A stretch of DNA of 9,420 nucleotides from a virus. Lineage: Duplodnaviria; Heunggongvirae; Uroviricota; Caudoviricetes. The translations under genes and the position numbers were made by a program. Location: positions 1 through 9,420 of the IMG/VR virus record IMGVR_UViG_2695420763_000021; one strand, 5' to 3'. Below are positions 1-7,923 of the stretch, piece by piece; position 1 is the first letter of the stretch, and each line of letters begins with the position of its first letter. The notes under the pieces are model-generated. The model made no database searches. It was not told the origin of the DNA and was given only the letters and a program-made list of their open reading frames with translations.

Positions 1-1167
1 ATGAATAGAATCTATCGCGTGATATGGAATTGCACTCTACAGGTATTTCAGGCCTGCTCGGAATTAACTCGCAGGGCAGGTAAAACATCGACGGTTAATT
101 TGCGTAAATCCTCTGGACTGACAACGAAATTCAGTAGATTGACGCTGGGTGTTTTGCTGGCACTAAGCGGTTCAGCGTCTGGTGCAAGTCTGGAAGTTGA
201 TAATGATCAGATTACCAATATTGATACTGATGTTGCTTATGATGCCTACCTGGTTGGCTGGTATGGCACTGGAGTGCTTAATATTTTGGCTGGCGGTAAT
301 GCCTCCTTAACCACTATTACTACCAGCGTCATTGGCGCTAATGAGGACTCAGAGGGCACCGTTAATGTTTTGGGTGGCACCTGGCGATTGTATGATAGCG
401 GAAATAATGCAAGGCCTTTAAATGTGGGTCAATCCGGAACGGGGACGCTGAATATTAAACAGAAAGGTCACGTTGATGGAGGCTATTTAAGACTAGGTTC
501 CTCGACAGGAGGCGTCGGGACGGTCAATGTTGAGGGAGAGGACTCTGTTCTGACGACCGAATTATTCGAAATAGGGAGTTACGGTACGGGCTCATTAAAT
601 ATTACGGATAAGGGTTACGTCACGAGTTCAATAGTCGCCATTTTAGGCTATCAGGCGGGCAGTAATGGCCAGGTTGTCGTTGAAAAGGGCGGTGAGTGGC
701 TAATAAAAAATAACGATTCCTCAATTGAATTTCAAATTGGTAATCAAGGAACGGGGGAAGCGACTATTCGCGAGGGTGGACTGATTACGGCTGAAAACAC
801 GATTATCGGTGGCAATGCTACCGGTATCGGAACCCTGAATGTGCAGGATCAAGACTCTGTCATCACGGTACGCAGACTCTATAATGGATATTTCGGTAAT
901 GGCACACTCAATATTTCCAATAATGGACTAATTAATAACAAAGAATATTCATTAGTGGGCGTTCAGGACGGTTCCCACGGTGTCGTCAACGTGACCGATA
1001 AAGGGCATTGGAATTTCCTCGGAACGGGCGAAGCTTTCCGCTATATCTATATCGGTGATGCTGGCGACGGTGAACTTAATGTCTCGCGTGAAGGTAAAGT
1101 AGATTCGGGAATTATCACTGCGGGGATGAAAGAAACAGGCACAGGCAACATTACTGTTAAGGATAAG
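1..1167 (+). pseudogene. Autotransporter (type Va) adhesin, 5' fragment: extended signal peptide plus passenger-domain repeats, 3'-truncated by IS2
   Basis: ATG at 1. N-terminus MNRIYRVIWN...SELTRRAGK has the extended-signal-peptide pattern of enterobacterial autotransporters, followed by hydrophobic LTLGVLLALSGSASG and repeated GTGxLNI / GNGTLNI / GIGTLNV passenger motifs. The native frame ends at codon 389 (1165-1167) and then reads 28 codons into IS2 before the stop at 1252-1254. No beta-barrel translocator domain is present. Confidence 0.8.
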
Positions 1168-1208
1168 TGGATTTGCCCCTATATTTCCAGACATCTGTTA
1201 TCACTTAA
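1168..1208. repeat. IS2 right terminal inverted repeat (IRR)
   Basis: Imperfect inverted repeat partner of 2457-2498; begins TGGATTTGCCCC. Confidence 0.8.
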
Positions 1209-2084
1209 CCCATTACAAGCCCACTGCCGCAGATATTCCCGTGGCGAGCGATAACCCAGCGCACTATGCGGATGCCATTCGTTATAATGCTCGAACGCCT
1301 CTGCAAGGTTCTTTGCTGCCGTTAACCCGTCTGGTTTGGGCATGATACTGATGTAGTCACGCTTTATCGTTTTCACGAAGCTCTCTGCTATTCCGTTACT
1401 CTCCGGACTCCGCACCGCCGTGTTCTTCGGTTCAAGTCCCAACATCCGGGCGAACTGGCGTGTTTCATTAGCCCGGTAGCATGAACCATTATCCGTCAGC
1501 CACTCCACTGGAGACGACGGAAGATCGTTGCCGAAGCGGCGTTCCACCGCTCCCAGCATGACGTCCTGTACTGTTTCACTGTTGAAGCCGCCGGTAGTCA
1601 CCGCCCAGTGCAGTGCCTCACGATCACAGCAGTCCAGCGCGAACGTGACACGCAGTCTCTCTCCGTTATCACAGCAGAACTCGAACCCGTCAGAGCACCA
1701 TCGCTGATTGCTTTCTTTCACGGCCACTCTGCCTGTATGTGCCCGTTTCGATGGCGGTACAGTAGGTTTTCGCTCAAGCAACAGCGCATTCTGGCGCATG
1801 ATCCGGTAAACACGTTTGGCATTGATCGCAGGCATACCATCAAGTTCTGCCTGTCTGCGAAGCAGCGCCCATACCCGACGATAACCATACGTGGGCAGCT
1901 CTCCGATAACATGGTGTATACGGAGAAGCACATCCGTATCATCAGTGTGACGACTGCGGCGGCCATCCATCCAGTCATCGGTTCGTCTGAGAATGACGTA
2001 CAACTGCGCACGCGACACCCGGAGACAACGGCTGACTAAGCTTACTCCCCATCCCCGGGCAATAAGGGCGCGTGCGCTATCCAC
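1179..2084 (-). CDS. insD: IS2 transposase OrfB (InsD), DDE integrase-like catalytic domain
   Basis: 301-aa ORF inside IS2. The translation (e.g. ...[18 protein letters not shown]...[11 protein letters not shown]...[18 protein letters not shown]) matches IS2 InsD as recalled. Its 5' end overlaps orfA in the -1 frame. Confidence 0.9.
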
Positions 2085-2407
2085 TTTTTTGCCCGTCCAT
2101 ATTCAACGGCTTCTTTGAGGAGTTCATTTTCCATCGTTTTCTTGCCGAGCAGGCGCTGGAGTTCTTTAATCTGCTTCATGGCGGCAGCAAGTTCAGAGGC
2201 AGGAACAACCTGTTCTCCGGCGGCGACAGCAGTAAGACTTCCTTCCTGGTATTGCTTACGCCAGAGAAATAACTGGCTGGCTGCTACACCATGTTGCCGG
2301 GCAACGAGGGAGACCGTCATCCCCGGTTCAAAGCTCTGCTGAACAATTGCGATCTTTTCCTGTGTGGTACGCCGTCTGCGTTTCTCCGGCCCTAAGACAT
2401 CAATCAT
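2042..2407 (-). CDS. insC: IS2 transposase OrfA (InsC), HTH DNA-binding subunit
   Basis: Start placed at the internal ATG 2407..2405 ([24 protein letters not shown]...), giving 121 aa. The track ORF extends upstream to 2452 but that reads through the IRL-proximal sequence. Confidence 0.88.
2084..2090 (-). other. A6G slippery heptamer for programmed -1 ribosomal frameshift (OrfA to OrfAB fusion transposase)
   Basis: Minus strand reads AAAAAAG at 2090..2084, inside the orfA/orfB overlap and at the 5' end of the orfB frame. IS3-family elements, including IS2, use this motif. Confidence 0.6.
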
Positions 2408-2456
2408 CTGTTCTCCAATGACTAGTCTAAAAACTAGTATTAAGACTATCACTTAT

Positions 2457-6385: not shown

Positions 6386-6748
6386 TTAATGACCTGCTGC
6401 GCGGAGTTTTCCGTCAGGTTCACCGGCAAGAGTCAGTAATTGTCCCTGGTCTTCCTGCAGAATAGTCAGGCGACCACCGCGATTGACATACATCGGCGTT
6501 TCGGTGGTGTCTTCTTCGGAAATTTTCCCGCGGTTAGTCGGGCGAACATATGAGAGTTTGTGTTTTATTTTCACACGGTTCTCATCAAACGGTTCGATTT
6601 CCAGGTTGAGCGAGACCTTACCTTTGGTTTTCGTGTTCATCACACCGGAAGCGACTTCACTGAGAACTGCGCCGATTTTGGTTTCAAATACGCCGCCGTC
6701 CAGCTCCCCGATAAATGCCTGCACATCAGTACTGCGTTCGCTAGCCAT
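6386..6748 (-). CDS. yfdP: YfdP-like phage protein (121 aa), first gene of the pL operon
   Basis: Start chosen at ATG 6748..6746 (MASERSTDVQAF...) because AGGAG lies 7 nt upstream. The track's 182-aa version starts at an upstream GTG, and the extra N-terminal 62 codons are Cys/Arg/Pro-rich and look non-coding. Confidence 0.55.
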   Translation of the reverse strand: MASERSTDVQAFIGELDGGVFETKIGAVLSEVASGVMNTKTKGKVSLNLEIEPFDENRVKIKHKLSYVRPTNRGKISEEDTTETPMYVNRGGRLTILQEDQGQLLTLAGEPDGKLRAAGH

Positions 6749-6796
6749 TTTGCTGCTCCTCATCATATCGACCCTGCAAGGTCGGTTAGTTTCTCC

Positions 6797-6895
6797 ACAA
6801 AACAGAGAAGAACACCTGCGGTGGCAGCCGCCCGGATGGATTGGGTTATGAGCCCGTCGTCCGGTGATGCTCTTCTCTGTTTTGTAAAAAGAGCG
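6797..6895 (-). promoter_or_regulatory. Structured element in the pL leader: boxA-like CGCTCTTTTTA followed directly by a 15-bp perfect inverted repeat with a 59-nt loop
   Basis: Minus strand reads CGCTCTTTTTA at 6895..6885. Stem arms are 6871-6885 (TCTTCTCTGTTTTGT) and 6797-6811 (ACAAAACAGAGAAGA), exact reverse complements. A second 10-bp inverted repeat (6893-6902 / 6922-6931) lies just upstream. Confidence 0.35.
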
Positions 6896-7089
6896 GTACC
6901 AGCCGGAAGCAAGTGTACAAACTGGTACCGCCAAAGCAGTGGCTGTTGTGGTGACCGGTGCTGATCTCCGGCTTGCGGTTATTTCAGACTCTCACGGGCG
7001 TTTAATTGCCCCGCCGAACAGCTCTTTTCCGCAATAGCTGCAATGTCTTTCGCGCATCAGCCTGCGCATTCACCACAACTCTAAAAACA

Positions 7090-7119
7090 AATGTAGGATA
7101 TCCAACATGTAAGTGTCAA
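7090..7119 (-). promoter_or_regulatory. pL-like early-left promoter (-35 TTGACA 7119..7114, 18-nt spacer, -10 TACATT 7095..7090)
   Basis: Minus strand reads TTGACActtacatgttggatatccTACATT, nearly identical to the pR module at 7894-7923. The -10 is embedded in operator OL-a. Confidence 0.6.
7091..7108. promoter_or_regulatory. Repressor operator OL-a (18-bp palindrome ATGTAGGATATCCAACAT)
   Basis: Exact reverse complement of OR-c (7905-7922). Half-site consensus ATGTWGGAT. Overlaps the pL -10. Confidence 0.65.
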
Positions 7120-7125
7120 GAGTTT

Positions 7126-7143
7126 ATGTTGGTTATCCTACAT
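7126..7143. promoter_or_regulatory. Repressor operator OL-b (ATGTTGGTTATCCTACAT)
   Basis: 17 of 18 matches to the operator consensus; lies just upstream of the pL -35. Confidence 0.6.
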
Positions 7144-7160
7144 AAAAAGATAGGCTCATA

Positions 7161-7185
7161 AAAAAACCGGGGATACCCCGGTTTT
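7161..7185 (-). terminator. Rho-independent terminator downstream of the repressor gene (bidirectional hairpin)
   Basis: AAAAAA-CCGGGG-ATA-CCCCGG-TTTT. On the minus strand a GC stem is followed by UUUUUU, 20 nt after the repressor stop and before OL/pL. Confidence 0.7.
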
Positions 7186-7205
7186 GCGATAGTGAGGAAG
7201 ATGTG

Positions 7206-7859
7206 TCAAAAATCCATTATTACTTGTTTGACAAGACCAACTATTCTGCAGTTTTCACCGCATTCAATAGTTTTATAGTTAGGATTTAGTGGGACGAGAT
7301 ACCTGTTCGGCCAGTCCTCAACAAATTTTTTGAGTGTCGCTTCTTGCCCACCATTGATATGGGCAACAACGATTTTTCCGTTAATACACTCTGTATCAAT
7401 AATATCTGGCTCTACGATAACGATAGAACCTTCTGGTATCGATGGTGAGCCGAGGGGATTGGTCATTGAATCACCACGGACCCGTAGTGCAAATGCCATT
7501 TCTGATACAAGGGCGGTAGTATAAACCCACTCTTCAGCATCTTCTTTCCTGACACCAGGCTCCGTCATTGTCCATGAACCCGCCTGAACCCACGAGATGA
7601 GGGGGACTTTTTTAACTGCGAATATTTCAGGTTTTAGATTTATCTTTGGTTCAGGCGAGCCTTTTCCGCTAACAAGCCACAGAGGATCGCATTTAAGTGC
7701 GTTGGCTAGGGCTTGAAGGTTGGCTCCATTTGGTTGGTAGTCGTCCTTTTCCCATCCAGTAACCGTGACACGGTTCACACCAGTCAAATCAGCCAGTGCT
7801 TGTTGTGTCAGGTTCAGTTCTTTTCGCCTTTGGCGAATACGATCACTCATGTTCATCAT
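7206..7859 (-). CDS. CI-type prophage repressor: N-terminal HTH (XRE family) plus C-terminal S24 LexA-like autopeptidase
   Basis: 217 aa. HTH segment LTQQALADLTGVNRVTVTGWE. Ala-Gly cleavage-site context VQAG (as in lambda CI). Catalytic Ser in RVRGDSM and Lys in ATLKKF. The start ATG lies within operator OR-a, so the transcript is leaderless or nearly so, as for lambda pRM. Confidence 0.85.
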   Translation of the reverse strand: MMNMSDRIRQRRKELNLTQQALADLTGVNRVTVTGWEKDDYQPNGANLQALANALKCDPLWLVSGKGSPEPKINLKPEIFAVKKVPLISWVQAGSWTMTEPGVRKEDAEEWVYTTALVSEMAFALRVRGDSMTNPLGSPSIPEGSIVIVEPDIIDTECINGKIVVAHINGGQEATLKKFVEDWPNRYLVPLNPNYKTIECGENCRIVGLVKQVIMDF

Positions 7860-7882: not shown

Positions 7883-7900
7883 ATGTAGGATTCTTGACAT
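7883..7900. promoter_or_regulatory. Repressor operator OR-b (ATGTAGGATTCTTGACAT), overlapping the pR -35
   Basis: Perfect left half-site ATGTAGGAT; the right half is degenerate and contains TTGACA. Confidence 0.5.
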
Positions 7901-7923
7901 TGGCATGTTGGATATCCTACATT
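7894..7923 (+). promoter_or_regulatory. pR-like early-right promoter (-35 TTGACA 7894-7899, 18-nt spacer, -10 TACATT 7918-7923)
   Basis: Consensus -35, 18-bp spacer, 4 of 6 match in the -10. Lies about 30 nt upstream of the cro-like gene, whose RBS is GGGAGA at 7944-7949. Confidence 0.6.
7905..7922. promoter_or_regulatory. Repressor operator OR-c (ATGTTGGATATCCTACAT), overlapping the pR -10
   Basis: Perfect 18-bp palindrome-type site; reverse complement of OL-a. Confidence 0.65.

What the first reader, a model, noticed from the sequence alone, without database searches (positions are those of the whole stretch)
6749..7090. About 335-nt pL leader with a boxA-like motif abutting a 15-bp perfect inverted repeat, and no N-like gene
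The first gene after pL starts about 335 nt downstream of the predicted transcription start. On the transcribed (minus) strand the leader contains CGCTCTTTTTA (6895..6885), which resembles boxA of lambda nut sites and rrn antiterminators (CGCTCTTA / TGCTCTTTAACAA as I recall them). It is followed with zero spacer by a 15-bp perfect inverted repeat (6871-6885 / 6797-6811) enclosing 59 nt. A 10-bp inverted repeat (6893-6902 / 6922-6931) lies just upstream. A 15-bp perfect inverted repeat is very unlikely by chance. No Arg-rich N-like protein is encoded between pL and the first gene, so the element could act as a protein-independent (put-like) antiterminator, an RNase III processing site, or a binding site for a factor encoded elsewhere.
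Basis: partly seen in the sequence, partly recalled or inferred. Interest (0 to 1): 0.6.

Follow-up and report, generated by a model that had tools for sequence, protein, structure and literature searches.

The report
DicF-type prophage small-RNA locus
The "boxA plus inverted repeat" lies in the untranslated region at the start of a prophage's leftward early operon, which matches the known E. coli dicF small-RNA region, but the long hairpin encloses a conserved RNA module that looks like the initiator tRNA anticodon arm and appears to be undescribed.

Summary
Both inverted repeats sit at the stated coordinates and are far beyond chance. The main interpretation, a nut- or put-like antiterminator, is not supported.

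- **10-bp repeat and "boxA".** Together they form a GC-rich hairpin followed by a run of five U. The stem covaries in relatives. Only the U run is conserved, not the boxA letters. This hairpin is the sequence and positional homologue of the DicF small RNA and its terminator in E. coli K-12 prophage Qin. The domain upstream of it matches Rfam STnc100 or tRNA in relatives.
- **15-bp repeat.** It is the core of a 25-bp helix (P1) that starts in the U run. P1 encloses a three-way junction and ends 44 nt before yfdP. K-12 has the same layout after DicF, and RNase III is reported to cut there.
- **Enclosed module.** Its 20-nt core is invariant in about 100 phages while the helices around it covary. 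Fourteen of these nucleotides equal the initiator tRNA anticodon arm. A second class of this module sits among late-operon tRNA genes and ends in RCCA. No Rfam family matches it.

Verdict: a known kind of prophage small-RNA and RNase III locus, carrying a module that appears new.

The parts
7090..7119 (-). Predicted early-left promoter (pL): TTGACA, 18-nt spacer, TACATT. Predicted start near 7083.
   Evidence: The same hexamers form the divergent pR at 7894-7923.
7091..7143 (.). Operator-like 18-bp inverted repeat overlapping pL (7091-7108 / 7126-7143).
   Evidence: repeat I2, 94% complementary.
6945..7079 (-). Domain I: a multi-hairpin domain closed by the stem GUUGUGGUG / CACCACAAC. It occupies the position of the tRNA-like / STnc100 5' domain in relatives.
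   Evidence: Folds. 108 of 137 relatives have a GTTGTGG...CCACAAC domain here. In relatives, Rfam tRNA reaches 29.5-43.9 bits and STnc100 35-43 bits at this position. The cdtI version is 89% identical to K-12 sequence upstream of dicF.
6892..6932 (-). T1: DicF-like hairpin with a 13-bp stem (6932-6920 / 6904-6892) and a pyrimidine-rich 15-nt loop.
   Evidence: Alignment to K-12 DicF (16 of 17 nt in the 5' arm). The stem covaries in 66 of 68 contexts. The Rfam DicF model hits relatives at 29 bits.
6885..6895 (-). It is the last bases of the T1 3' arm, the U5 terminator run (6890-6886), and the first base pairs of P1.
6792..6890 (-). Domain II: a three-way junction closed by the 25-bp helix P1 (5' arm 6890-6866, 3' arm 6816-6792).
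   Evidence: Fold (z = -7.8). Covariation. Model R1 scores 111.5 bits on the minus strand against 39 on the plus strand. K-12 analogue.
6837..6858 (-). Invariant core GACGGGCUCAUAACCCAAUCCA: a GGG/CCC stem with a CUCAUAA loop (6852-6846) and an asymmetric internal loop. Fourteen nt are identical to the E. coli initiator tRNA anticodon arm.
6818..6831 (-). P3: a small hairpin (GCGG-CUGCCA-CCGC) that varies in sequence and length among relatives (14 to about 50 nt).
6769..6784 (-). Small hairpin with a UGCAG loop between P1 and the ribosome-binding site. Hairpins with the same loop motif occur in relatives.
6386..6760 (-). Shine-Dalgarno AGGAG (6760-6756) and yfdP (ATG at 6748, 120 aa), the first gene of the early-left operon.
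7163..7859 (-). Repressor gene (7206-7859; HTH plus Peptidase_S24) and its terminator hairpin (7163-7185), which define the immunity region upstream of pL.

Best explanation
The 335-nt 'leader' is the untranslated small-RNA region of the early-left operon of a lambdoid prophage that lacks N. It is the counterpart of the dicF region of the dicBF operon in E. coli K-12 prophage Qin.

Proposed sequence of events:
1. When the repressor is inactivated, pL fires.
2. RNA polymerase transcribes Domain I and then the DicF-like hairpin T1 with its U run.
3. Some transcripts end at T1, giving an RNA of about 198 nt. This is comparable to the 190-nt DicF species in K-12. RNase E may trim it to a hairpin-plus-U-tail small RNA of about 60 nt that acts on mRNAs by base pairing.
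4. Transcripts that read through pair the U run and the following 20 nt with 6816-6792, forming the 25-bp helix P1.
5. RNase III cuts P1. This gives the small RNA an alternative 3' end (as for the 72-nt DicF), sets the mature 5' end of the yfdP-yfdQ-... mRNA, and frees the enclosed three-way junction.

Shown here: the structures, their covariation, the transcribed strand, and the sequence and positional homology to dicF/STnc100 loci. Inferred by homology: termination at T1, RNase III cleavage of P1, and small-RNA function. Unknown: the targets of this DicF variant, and the role of the invariant core that resembles the initiator tRNA anticodon arm.
For: Context. The immunity region (S24 repressor, P22-type Cro, CII-like protein) and a yfdP/yfdQ/yfdR early-left operon are present. 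The same leader occurs in mEp460, cdtI, SfV, Stx2c phages and ST64B.

T1 is a terminator-like hairpin. It has a 13-bp stem followed by U5. In 66 of 68 distinct contexts a hairpin with different but complementary arms ends 0-3 nt (up to 7 in a few) before U5-7.

Homology to DicF:
- The Rfam DicF model hits the same element in relatives L099 (29.6 bits, E = 2.7e-4) and L087 (29.1 bits).
- The window shares TTTGGCGGTA(C/T)CAGTTT and CTG..CCGCYCTTTTTA with K-12 DicF.
- cdtI Domain I is 89% identical over 123 nt (E = 2e-44) to the K-12 segment just upstream of dicF and is followed by the same hairpin arm. From T1 to yfdP, cdtI is about 99% identical to the window.
- Rfam STnc100 covers Domain I plus T1 in SfV-type leaders (39.5 bits, E = 3e-5).

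Same architecture in K-12: DicF hairpin, U run, a 21-bp long-range stem enclosing a multi-hairpin domain, then the dicB ribosome-binding site. The literature reports DicF 3' ends made by Rho-independent termination (53 nt) or by RNase III cleavage of read-through transcripts (72 nt), and a 190-nt species whose 5' end is made by RNase III (PMC5069750, PMC10448788).

P1. It is 25 bp, above the 22-nt minimum duplex cited for RNase III targets (PMC5371410). 92% of cells are paired against 41-57% when the partners are slid. Ten pairs (six of them in P1) have changes on both sides, and 0 of 500 shuffles reach the observed score.

Strand. Many G-U pairs occur, and the model scores 111.5 bits on the minus strand against 39 on the plus strand.
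Against: - The window's own T1 and Domain I are not hit by Rfam DicF or STnc100 even at E <= 10. Relatives score below the gathering thresholds (48 and 47 bits).
- The single-stranded 5' part and the loop, which form the DicF seed regions, differ from K-12 DicF.
- Complementarity of the window's hairpin to the ftsZ ribosome-binding site is no better than shuffled controls.
- The T1 loop is large (15 nt) and the U run is only 5 nt, so termination efficiency is uncertain. The simple terminator scan did not call it because of its loop limit.
- No transcript mapping or RNase data for this phage were available.
- An RNase III stem alone does not explain why a 20-nt core inside it is invariant.
Confidence: 0.7

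Rival explanations
1. Domain II is a functional RNA in its own right: a tRNA-like molecule without a D arm that presents a copy of the initiator tRNA anticodon arm. It would be released by RNase III in pL leaders and by tRNA-processing enzymes in late-operon tRNA islands, and would act in trans. Possible roles are as a decoy or competitor for something that recognises the initiator anticodon arm, such as an anticodon nuclease of the VapC type, the 30S P site, or MetRS. This is compatible with the best explanation and adds to it.
For: - The core ACGGGCUCAUAACCCAAUC is invariant, while P2 is completely different but still paired in different lineages: CCGGRYG/CAYCCGG, CCUGAUG/CAUCAGG, CUGUCUG/CGGGCAG, GUAUG/CAUGC, CUCCAAUCG/CGAUUGGAG.
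- Fourteen nt are identical to the E. coli tRNA-fMet anticodon arm, whose sequence I verified against all 5,426 genomes.
- Class B copies lie 6 nt after tRNA-Arg, tRNA-Asn or tRNA-Phe genes. They have a 6-bp terminal stem followed by R-CCA, and conservation stops at the CCA.
- In some relatives the Domain I position holds a tRNA-like gene that passes Rfam's tRNA threshold.
Against: - Neither ARAGORN nor the Rfam tRNA model recognises Domain II in either class.
- Pl-leader copies (class A) have no CCA end and a 25-bp closing stem.
- The target is pure conjecture, and no experiment or co-occurring protein points to it.
- In most contexts the element lies directly upstream of a start codon, which also fits a cis role.
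Confidence: 0.2
2. Domain II is a cis-acting regulator of the first gene's translation or mRNA stability. It would be an operator for a protein, or a ribosome- or ligand-sensing structure, placed just upstream of the ribosome-binding site.
For: - The element ends about 40-50 nt before the start codon of whichever gene comes first: YfdP-like, RdgC-like, YfdR-like or others.
- The Raoultella (L152) and Acidobacteriaceae-MAG (L149) copies also lie shortly upstream of a Shine-Dalgarno sequence and AUG.
- An invariant loop and internal loop are typical of a specific binding site.
Against: - Class B copies are not next to a start codon. They lie between tRNA genes and a terminator about 100 nt upstream of the holin gene.
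- The Shine-Dalgarno sequence and AUG are not sequestered by the structure.
- No candidate binding protein is conserved next to it.
Confidence: 0.15
3. The leader is a processive antiterminator RNA that needs no phage protein, like HK022 put. It would modify RNA polymerase so that it reads through terminators of the early-left operon.
For: - These phages have no N gene.
- Authors of the LLS phage paper speculate about put-like antitermination for the related LLS/ST64B group, without data (PMC12315714).
- Two adjacent stem-loops separated by one nucleotide resemble the put layout superficially.
Against: - Local alignment of the leader to putL and putR is not above shuffles: 66 of 300 and 299 of 300 shuffles score at least as high.
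- Model R1 finds nothing in the HK022 pL/pR region and only one copy in the whole mEp460 genome, so there is no pR-side copy.
- The element is about 100 nt or more, starts about 195 nt from the predicted start, and follows a terminator-like hairpin.
- No convincing intrinsic terminators lie downstream on the minus strand; two weak matches are at the chance level.
- Class B copies sit upstream of a terminator that precedes the lysis genes. I infer that constitutive read-through there would be harmful.
Confidence: 0.06
4. CGCUCUUUUUA is a functional boxA that recruits NusB/NusE, either as a nut site or as an rrn-type anti-Rho site that protects the long untranslated leader.
For: - Seven contiguous nt equal lambda boxA.
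- A hairpin followed by boxA and then a long RNase III stem recalls rrn leaders (my own knowledge of rrn operons).
- BoxA protects other untranslated RNAs from Rho (PMC7665894).
- The mEp phage collection is described as Nus-dependent (PMC11893012). I did not verify that mEp460 belongs to that tested set.
Against: - Only about one third of distinct homologous contexts keep GCUCUU. Close relatives have CGUCCUU, CGCCCUU, GACCUU or GCAUUUU, and the changes preserve pairing with the 5' arm of T1 (G-U / G-C) rather than the boxA consensus.
- The motif is base-paired on both sides.
- There is no boxB-like hairpin and no N gene.
Confidence: 0.06

Closest known systems
dicF region of the dicBF operon, cryptic lambdoid prophage Qin, E. 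coli K-12 (DicF, Rfam RF00039)
   Same: - It lies in the untranslated part of the operon repressed by the prophage repressor.
- The hairpin has the same 5' arm (TTTGGCGGTAYCAGTTT) and a CCGCYC-U5 tail.
- A homologous Domain I lies upstream (cdtI versus K-12, 89% identity).
- A long-range stem of more than 20 bp starts right after the U run, encloses a folded domain, and ends just before the next gene's ribosome-binding site.
- Papers report termination plus RNase III and RNase E processing there (PMC5069750, PMC10448788).
   Different: - The window's hairpin has a larger loop with a different sequence, and a different single-stranded 5' part, so its targets are probably different.
- It does not reach the Rfam DicF model at E <= 10.
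- No ftsZ complementarity was seen.
- The module inside the long stem is Domain II, not the Domain I-like module of K-12.
- The next gene is yfdP, not dicB.
- pL starts directly at Domain I, with no ydfABC genes in between.
STnc100 (Rfam RF02076), a prophage-encoded small RNA of Salmonella and E. coli
   Same: The 206-nt model spans Domain I plus T1 in SfV-type leaders, which share T1 through yfdP with the window. A 2026 preprint treats STnc100 as a phage-derived small RNA related to PasD (10.64898/2026.05.13.724894).
   Different: Scores are below the gathering threshold (35-43 bits against 47). The window's own Domain I variant is not hit at all.
Lambda pL leader (nutL followed by an RNase III-sensitive hairpin upstream of N)
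   Same: Both are long structured pL leaders in which a large hairpin upstream of the first gene's ribosome-binding site is an RNase III substrate. The lambda case is from my own knowledge and was not tested here. The window shares a 7-nt boxA match.
   Different: The window has no boxB and no N gene, and the boxA letters are not conserved in its relatives.
HK022 putL/putR antiterminator RNAs
   Same: Both occur in lambdoid phages without N, as a structured RNA downstream of pL.
   Different: There is no sequence or model similarity, only a single copy, and a different size and position.
Initiator tRNA (tRNA-fMet) anticodon arm
   Same: CGGGCUCAUAACCC is identical, including the three G-C pairs and the CUCAUAA loop.
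   Different: There is no D arm and no T loop. tRNA finders do not recognise it. Class A copies have no CCA end.
P4 CI and P1/P7 C4 RNAs (small RNAs cut out of operon leaders)
   Same: These are phage regulatory RNAs excised by host RNases from the leader of the operon they belong to (my own knowledge).
   Different: The Rfam C4 model does not hit the window. It does hit another part of one related contig, L025.

Membership tests
DicF (RF00039) | Encoded in the untranslated region of the repressor-controlled early operon of a lambdoid prophage | tested here: met
   Repressor, Cro, CII-like protein and pL lie upstream, and the yfdP operon lies downstream. K-12 layout.
DicF (RF00039) | GC-rich hairpin followed by a U run that serves as a Rho-independent terminator and forms the 3' end of the small RNA | tested here: met
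   Structure only: 13-bp stem plus U5. 66 of 68 relatives have a covarying hairpin plus U5-7. Termination itself was not tested.
DicF (RF00039) | Match to the Rfam covariance model at the gathering score (48 bits) | tested here: not met
   No hit in the window at E <= 10. Relatives L099 and L087 reach 29.6 and 29.1 bits. Partial sequence identity to K-12 DicF, 16 of 17 nt in the 5' arm.
DicF (RF00039) | Complementarity to the ftsZ ribosome-binding site | tested here: not met
   RNAduplex z = +0.46 for the window hairpin against -1.5 for K-12 DicF. This is a crude test.
DicF (RF00039) | [quoted passage not shown] | not testable with these tools
   Only the analogous long stem can be shown. The processing data come from K-12 papers (PMC5069750, PMC10448788).
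STnc100 (RF02076) | Match to the 206-nt covariance model at the gathering score (47 bits) | tested here: not met
   No hit in the window. SfV-type relatives reach 35-43 bits over Domain I plus T1.
Lambda-type nut site | boxA CGCUCUUA conserved among related phages | tested here: not met
   7 of 8 nt match in the window, but the motif varies as a hairpin arm in relatives.
Lambda-type nut site | boxB hairpin a few nt downstream, and an N protein with an arginine-rich motif | tested here: not met
   No such hairpin. No N-like ORF in the window or after the element in 100+ relatives.
HK022 put RNA | Sequence or structure similarity to putL/putR | tested here: not met
   Local alignment scores fall within the shuffle distribution. 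Model R1 finds no hit in the HK022 pL/pR region.
HK022 put RNA | Copies downstream of both pL and pR, the pL copy starting at the transcript 5' end | tested here: not met
   One copy in the whole mEp460 genome. The element starts about 195 nt from the predicted start.
HK022 put RNA | Suppression of terminators in cis, dependent on the beta-prime zinc-binding domain | not testable with these tools
   Needs reporter assays or in vitro transcription.
tRNA | Cloverleaf recognised by ARAGORN or by Rfam RF00005 (29 bits) | tested here: not met
   Domain II is not recognised in class A or class B. By contrast, the Domain I position in L105, L087 and L099 scores 43.9, 40 and 29.5 bits.
RNase III substrate | Duplex of about 22 bp or more | tested here: met
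   P1 has 25 pairs and 93.6% of cells are paired across 25 sequences. The 22-nt minimum is taken from PMC5371410.
RNase III substrate | rnc-dependent cleavage in vivo or in vitro | not testable with these tools
   Inferred only from the K-12 dicF locus.

The most novel reading that the evidence does not exclude
Domain II (window 6890-6792) founds an undescribed family of phage RNAs. It is a three-way junction whose invariant arm copies the initiator tRNA anticodon stem-loop. It occurs in two forms: one embedded in an RNase III stem in pL leaders, and one as a tRNA-like gene without a D arm and with an encoded RCCA end in late-operon tRNA islands. Under this reading it acts in trans on a host or defence factor that recognises initiator tRNA.
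Probability: 0.15. Interest if true: 0.8.

Novelty: new variant of a known kind. Interest (0 to 1): 0.45.

Why it matters
- **Annotation.** A stretch present in more than half of complete E. coli genomes (2,971 of 5,426 have a match to 6700-7210) is left without any RNA annotation, or carries small ORF calls. It is better read as a divergent DicF/STnc100-type small-RNA locus with its processing stem. Prophage small RNAs of this kind reprogram host division, metabolism and virulence in K-12 and EHEC, so an unrecognised variant with a different seed region means unrecognised host targets.
- **Antitermination in N-less lambdoid phages.** The obvious candidate element in this leader is not a nut or put site.
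- **A candidate new RNA.** The invariant core that resembles the initiator tRNA anticodon arm, together with its tRNA-island relatives, is a concrete and testable candidate for a new phage tRNA-like RNA.

Tried and rejected
1. Rfam on the whole window and on the leader alone, at E <= 10, gave nothing for the element. A weak Guanidine-I hit on Domain I (17.6 bits, E = 0.62) was rejected because the matching hairpins are not conserved in ST64B, SfV or cdtI Domain I.
2. ARAGORN found no tRNA in the window.
3. Local alignment to putL/putR was at background level. I did not build a put covariance model. Only two sequences were available and their alignment was out of register in stem II.
4. K-12 CPS-53, where yfdP was named, lacks the element. 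Its yfdP upstream region is rearranged, so K-12 transcript data for yfdP do not help.
5. The 25-aa Arg-rich ORF at 6992-7069 was considered as a mini-N. It was rejected because it has no usable Shine-Dalgarno sequence and is not conserved as an ORF.
6. Pattern hits of the core in Omnitrophota, Bacteroidota and other phyla were rejected as chance or as coding sequence. They have no complementary flanks and their number is close to the chance expectation. L149 is the exception.
7. A 9-nt perfect complement of the apical loop at 7153-7161 (repeat I9) was rejected. It is specific to this immunity type and about 0.5 such matches are expected by chance.
8. Pairing of the CUCAU loop with AUGAG at start codons was considered. 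It is explained instead by the conserved Met-Ser N-terminus of YfdP homologues.
9. A DNA-level element (recombination site or miniature transposon) was rejected because of the many G-U pairs and the strand asymmetry of the model score.
10. The King et al. 2011 paper on put-like RNAs could not be read.
Full report
**1. The observation**

- The 15-bp perfect inverted repeat (6797-6811 / 6871-6885) is the core of a repeat with 25-nt arms, 84% complementary. The 10-bp repeat (6893-6902 / 6922-6931) is also present.
- On the minus strand, CGCTCTTTTTA occupies 6895-6885.
- A promoter TTGACA-18-TACATT lies at 7119-7090 on the minus strand. It overlaps an 18-bp operator-like palindrome and sits downstream of an HTH/Peptidase_S24 repressor gene (7206-7859) and its terminator.
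- The first gene is yfdP, with its ATG at 6748. The leader is therefore about 335 nt.
- The leader RNA is much more stable than shuffled controls (z = -6.4). The 110 nt around the long repeat give z = -7.8.
- No N-like gene is present. The only Arg-rich ORF is 25 aa and is not conserved.

**2. Where the window comes from**

The window is an E. coli lambdoid prophage of the SfV / mEp460 / cdtI / Stx2c-phage type.
- Matches to 6700-7210 occur in 2,971 of 5,426 complete E. coli genomes.
- Among close relatives, similarity breaks off at about 6934, 6953 or 7082. The leader is therefore a mosaic of modules.
- In this window pL abuts the first module directly. In mEp460, cdtI and SfV, 300-700 nt of other sequence lie between pL and that module. 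In SfV this includes an ORF.

**3. The long repeat is an RNA helix closing a conserved three-way junction (Domain II)**

*Collecting relatives.* A 22-nt pattern taken from the centre of the hairpin found more than 120 stretches in viral contigs. It also found the element in about 25 species of Enterobacterales.

*Covariation.* I aligned 25 non-redundant copies and tested this structure: P1 (25 bp), P2 (7 bp), an apical GGG/CCC stem with a CUCAUAA loop, and P3.
- 92% of cells are paired, against 41-57% when the partners are slid.
- Ten pairs have changes on both sides. Examples are G-C in 15 sequences and C-G in 10 at one P1 position, and A-U alternating with G-C at three others.
- None of 500 shuffles reaches the observed score.

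*Strand and copy number.*
- Frequent G-U pairs, and a covariance model that scores 111.5 bits on the minus strand against 39 on the plus strand, show that the transcript of the pL strand is the functional form.
- The model finds one copy in the whole mEp460 genome and none in the HK022 pL/pR region.

**4. The core of Domain II**

*Invariance.* The 20 nt ACGGGCUCAUAACCCAAUCC are invariant, except for loop position 6 and the first base of the CCC strand. The helices around them change completely while staying paired. P2 is:
- CCGGRYG/CAYCCGG in pL leaders;
- CCUGAUG/CAUCAGG in Klebsiella phages;
- CUGUCUG/CGGGCAG in a Raoultella prophage;
- GUAUG/CAUGC in a Pantoea MAG contig;
- CUCCAAUCG/CGAUUGGAG in an Acidobacteriaceae MAG contig.

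*Resemblance to initiator tRNA.* Fourteen nucleotides (CGGGCUCAUAACCC) are identical to the anticodon arm of E. coli initiator tRNA. I verified that tRNA sequence against all 5,426 genomes.

*A second class (class B).*
- It lies in the late region of Klebsiella and Raoultella lambdoid phages, 6 nt after tRNA-Arg, tRNA-Asn or tRNA-Phe genes and upstream of a terminator and the holin gene.
- Its closing stem is 6 bp and is followed by R-CCA. Conservation stops there.

*Known families.* Neither ARAGORN nor any Rfam family, including tRNA, recognises Domain II in either class.

**5. The 10-bp repeat and the 'boxA' form a DicF-like terminator hairpin (T1)**

As RNA, the repeat extends to a 13-bp stem (6932-6920 / 6904-6892). 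It is followed by C and then UUUUU (6890-6886).

In 66 of 68 distinct homologous contexts a GC-rich hairpin ends 0-3 nt (up to 7 in a few) before U5-7. The arms differ between contexts but remain complementary: GGCGGUACCAG, GGCGGCAUC, GGCGGCGCCAG, UGGCGG, GGGGCGGUAAC, UGCCCAUC, GUCGGCGUC.

The letters that make the window look like boxA are the last bases of the 3' arm. Lambda boxA is CGCUCUUA. In close relatives these letters read CGUCC or CGCCC while still pairing with GG in the 5' arm. What is constrained is the hairpin and the U run, not a boxA.

**6. Identity of the locus**

*Rfam hits in relatives.*
- The DicF model hits this hairpin in L099 (29.6 bits, E = 2.7e-4) and L087.
- STnc100, a 206-nt prophage small-RNA family, covers Domain I plus T1 in SfV-type leaders (35-43 bits, E down to 3e-6).
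- All of these scores are below the curated thresholds, and the window's own variant is not hit.

*The chain of homology to K-12.*
- The window shares TTTGGCGGTA(C/T)CAGTTT and the CCGCYC-U5 tail with K-12 DicF.
- cdtI is about 99% identical to the window from T1 to yfdP.
- cdtI has a Domain I that is 89% identical over 123 nt (E = 2e-44) to the K-12 Qin segment immediately upstream of dicF. The same hairpin arm follows it.

*The same architecture in K-12.* The DicF hairpin and U run are followed by a 21-bp long-range stem. That stem encloses a multi-hairpin domain and ends at the dicB ribosome-binding site. This matches the layout T1 - P1 - Domain II - yfdP.

*What the literature reports for DicF.*
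- Its 3' end is made either by Rho-independent termination (53 nt) or by RNase III cleavage of read-through mRNA (72 nt) (PMC5069750).
- A 190-nt species has its 5' end made by RNase III, and the 53-nt form has its 5' end made by RNase E (PMC10448788).

Counting in the K-12 sequence, the 72-nt end falls inside the 5' arm of the long stem. In the window, the distance from the predicted pL start to the T1 U run is about 198 nt. This matches the 190-nt species.

**7. Domain I**

The region 7079-6945 folds into a junction closed by GUUGUGGUG / CACCACAAC.
- 108 of 137 relatives have a domain with these ends but with several unrelated interiors.
- In some relatives (L105, L087, L099) the interior has canonical D and T loops plus an insertion of about 55 nt. 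The Rfam tRNA model reaches 43.9, 40 and 29.5 bits against a threshold of 29. ARAGORN does not call them.

These leaders therefore look like strings of tRNA-like modules separated by long stems.

**8. Most likely mechanism**

Steps inferred by homology are marked.
1. pL is derepressed.
2. Domain I and T1 are transcribed.
3. Part of the transcripts terminate at the U run (inferred). This gives a small RNA of the DicF/STnc100 type, perhaps trimmed by RNase E (inferred).
4. Read-through transcripts form P1 (structure shown).
5. RNase III cuts P1 (inferred). P1 is 25 bp, above the 22-nt minimum quoted in PMC5371410. The cut separates the small RNA from the yfdP mRNA and frees Domain II.

The targets are unknown. 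The seed regions differ from K-12 DicF, and I saw no special complementarity to ftsZ.

The function of the invariant Domain II core is not explained by processing alone. I give the leading alternatives, a trans-acting tRNA-like RNA or a cis operator, as rivals that can coexist with this picture.

**9. Antitermination readings**

*Put-like.* There is no similarity to putL or putR, only a single copy, and the wrong position. There are no convincing downstream intrinsic terminators to overcome. Class B copies lie upstream of a terminator that precedes the lysis genes.

*boxA/Nus.* The motif is not conserved, it is paired on both sides, and there is no boxB or N.

Both readings remain formally possible at low probability. 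How these N-less phages handle early termination is still unknown. One paper only speculates about put for the related LLS/ST64B group (PMC12315714).

**10. Novelty and score**

The locus type is known: a prophage small RNA with a terminator and flanking RNase III stems in the early-left operon. This copy is a divergent variant that current models and genome annotation miss.

Domain II, with its core resembling the initiator tRNA anticodon arm and its relatives in tRNA islands, is not in Rfam 15. I found no description of it in the papers I could search.

I rate the finding of moderate interest. It is ordinary in kind and wrong in its headline interpretation, but it carries a well-supported conserved RNA of unknown function.

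Noticed in passing
L003 2478-2550 (Klebsiella phage GZ7); also L004, L020, L022, L044, L048, L053, L057, L066, L083, L086, L106, L161: Class B copies of the Domain II core lie 6 nt downstream of tRNA-Arg, tRNA-Asn or tRNA-Phe genes, between Q and the lysis genes. They have a 6-bp terminal stem followed by R-CCA, like a tRNA without a D arm. No tRNA finder calls them.
   Followed up: partly
L149 about 2546-2636 (Acidobacteriaceae MAG contig PMHC01000083): The 20-nt core is identical. It is flanked by unrelated, perfectly paired 9-bp and 12-bp stems and sits just upstream of a Shine-Dalgarno sequence and AUG. This is the only convincing copy outside Enterobacterales. It could reflect a wider distribution or contamination.
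   Followed up: partly
L105 1077-1203, L087 1800-1925, L099 4364-4488 (equivalent to window 6945-7079): At the Domain I position some relatives carry a tRNA-like gene with canonical D and T loops, a CAU-containing extended arm and an insertion of about 55 nt. It passes Rfam's tRNA threshold, but ARAGORN does not call it.
   Followed up: partly
L172 about 2520-2590 (SfV); L005, L006, L007 equivalents (alignment A4); absent from the window: A conserved, structured RNA of about 70 nt starts about 10 nt after pL in SfV, ST64B, phiNP and Flotzy. It shares CGAAC..GGC and AGGAUGA with HK022 putL/putR. Alignment scores are marginal (20-37 of 300 shuffles score as high in three of four comparisons). 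It is a better put-like candidate than anything in the window.
   Followed up: partly
window 6934, 6953 and 7082: Recombination junctions among close relatives fall at the 5' base of T1, at the 3' end of Domain I, and at the predicted transcription start. The RNA modules therefore behave as exchangeable units. Here pL is fused directly to Domain I.
   Followed up: partly
window 6989-7095 (minus strand): Weak full-length match to the Guanidine-I riboswitch model (17.6 bits, E = 0.62, threshold 63). The matching hairpins are not conserved in relatives, so it is probably chance.
   Followed up: yes
window 6992-7069 (minus strand): A 25-aa ORF, MRRLMRERHCSYCGKELFGGAIKRP, with an Arg-rich N-terminus lies inside Domain I. 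It has no proper Shine-Dalgarno sequence and is not conserved as an ORF.
   Followed up: yes
window 1-2452: The left end holds the N-terminal part of an autotransporter-like protein (ESPR signal peptide, 1-1254, plus strand). It overlaps, at 1179-1254, the end of an IS3-family transposase pair on the minus strand (1179-2084 and 2042-2452). The prophage's left arm is therefore interrupted.
   Followed up: no
window 7153-7161 versus 6846-6854: A 9-nt perfect complement of the Domain II apical stem-loop (UUAUGAGCC) lies between the repressor terminator and pL. It is not present in relatives with other immunity regions, so it is probably chance.
   Followed up: partly
window 6892-6920 and relatives: The loops of the DicF-like hairpins are 13-17 nt and pyrimidine-rich, with a recurrent CCCUU / CUUCC motif (anti-Shine-Dalgarno-like). 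SfV-type leaders have a conserved single-stranded GCUGUGUG(U/A)AGU just upstream, whereas the window has CAGCCACUGC. These are candidate seed regions.
   Followed up: no
L025 3354-3539: A related viral contig carries strong Rfam hits to the C4 antisense RNA (75 bits) and isrK (62 bits) a few hundred bases from its copy of the element.
   Followed up: no
window 7894-7923 and 7090-7119: pR and pL have identical hexamers and spacing (TTGACA-18-TACATT), each overlapping similar operator half-sites.
   Followed up: no
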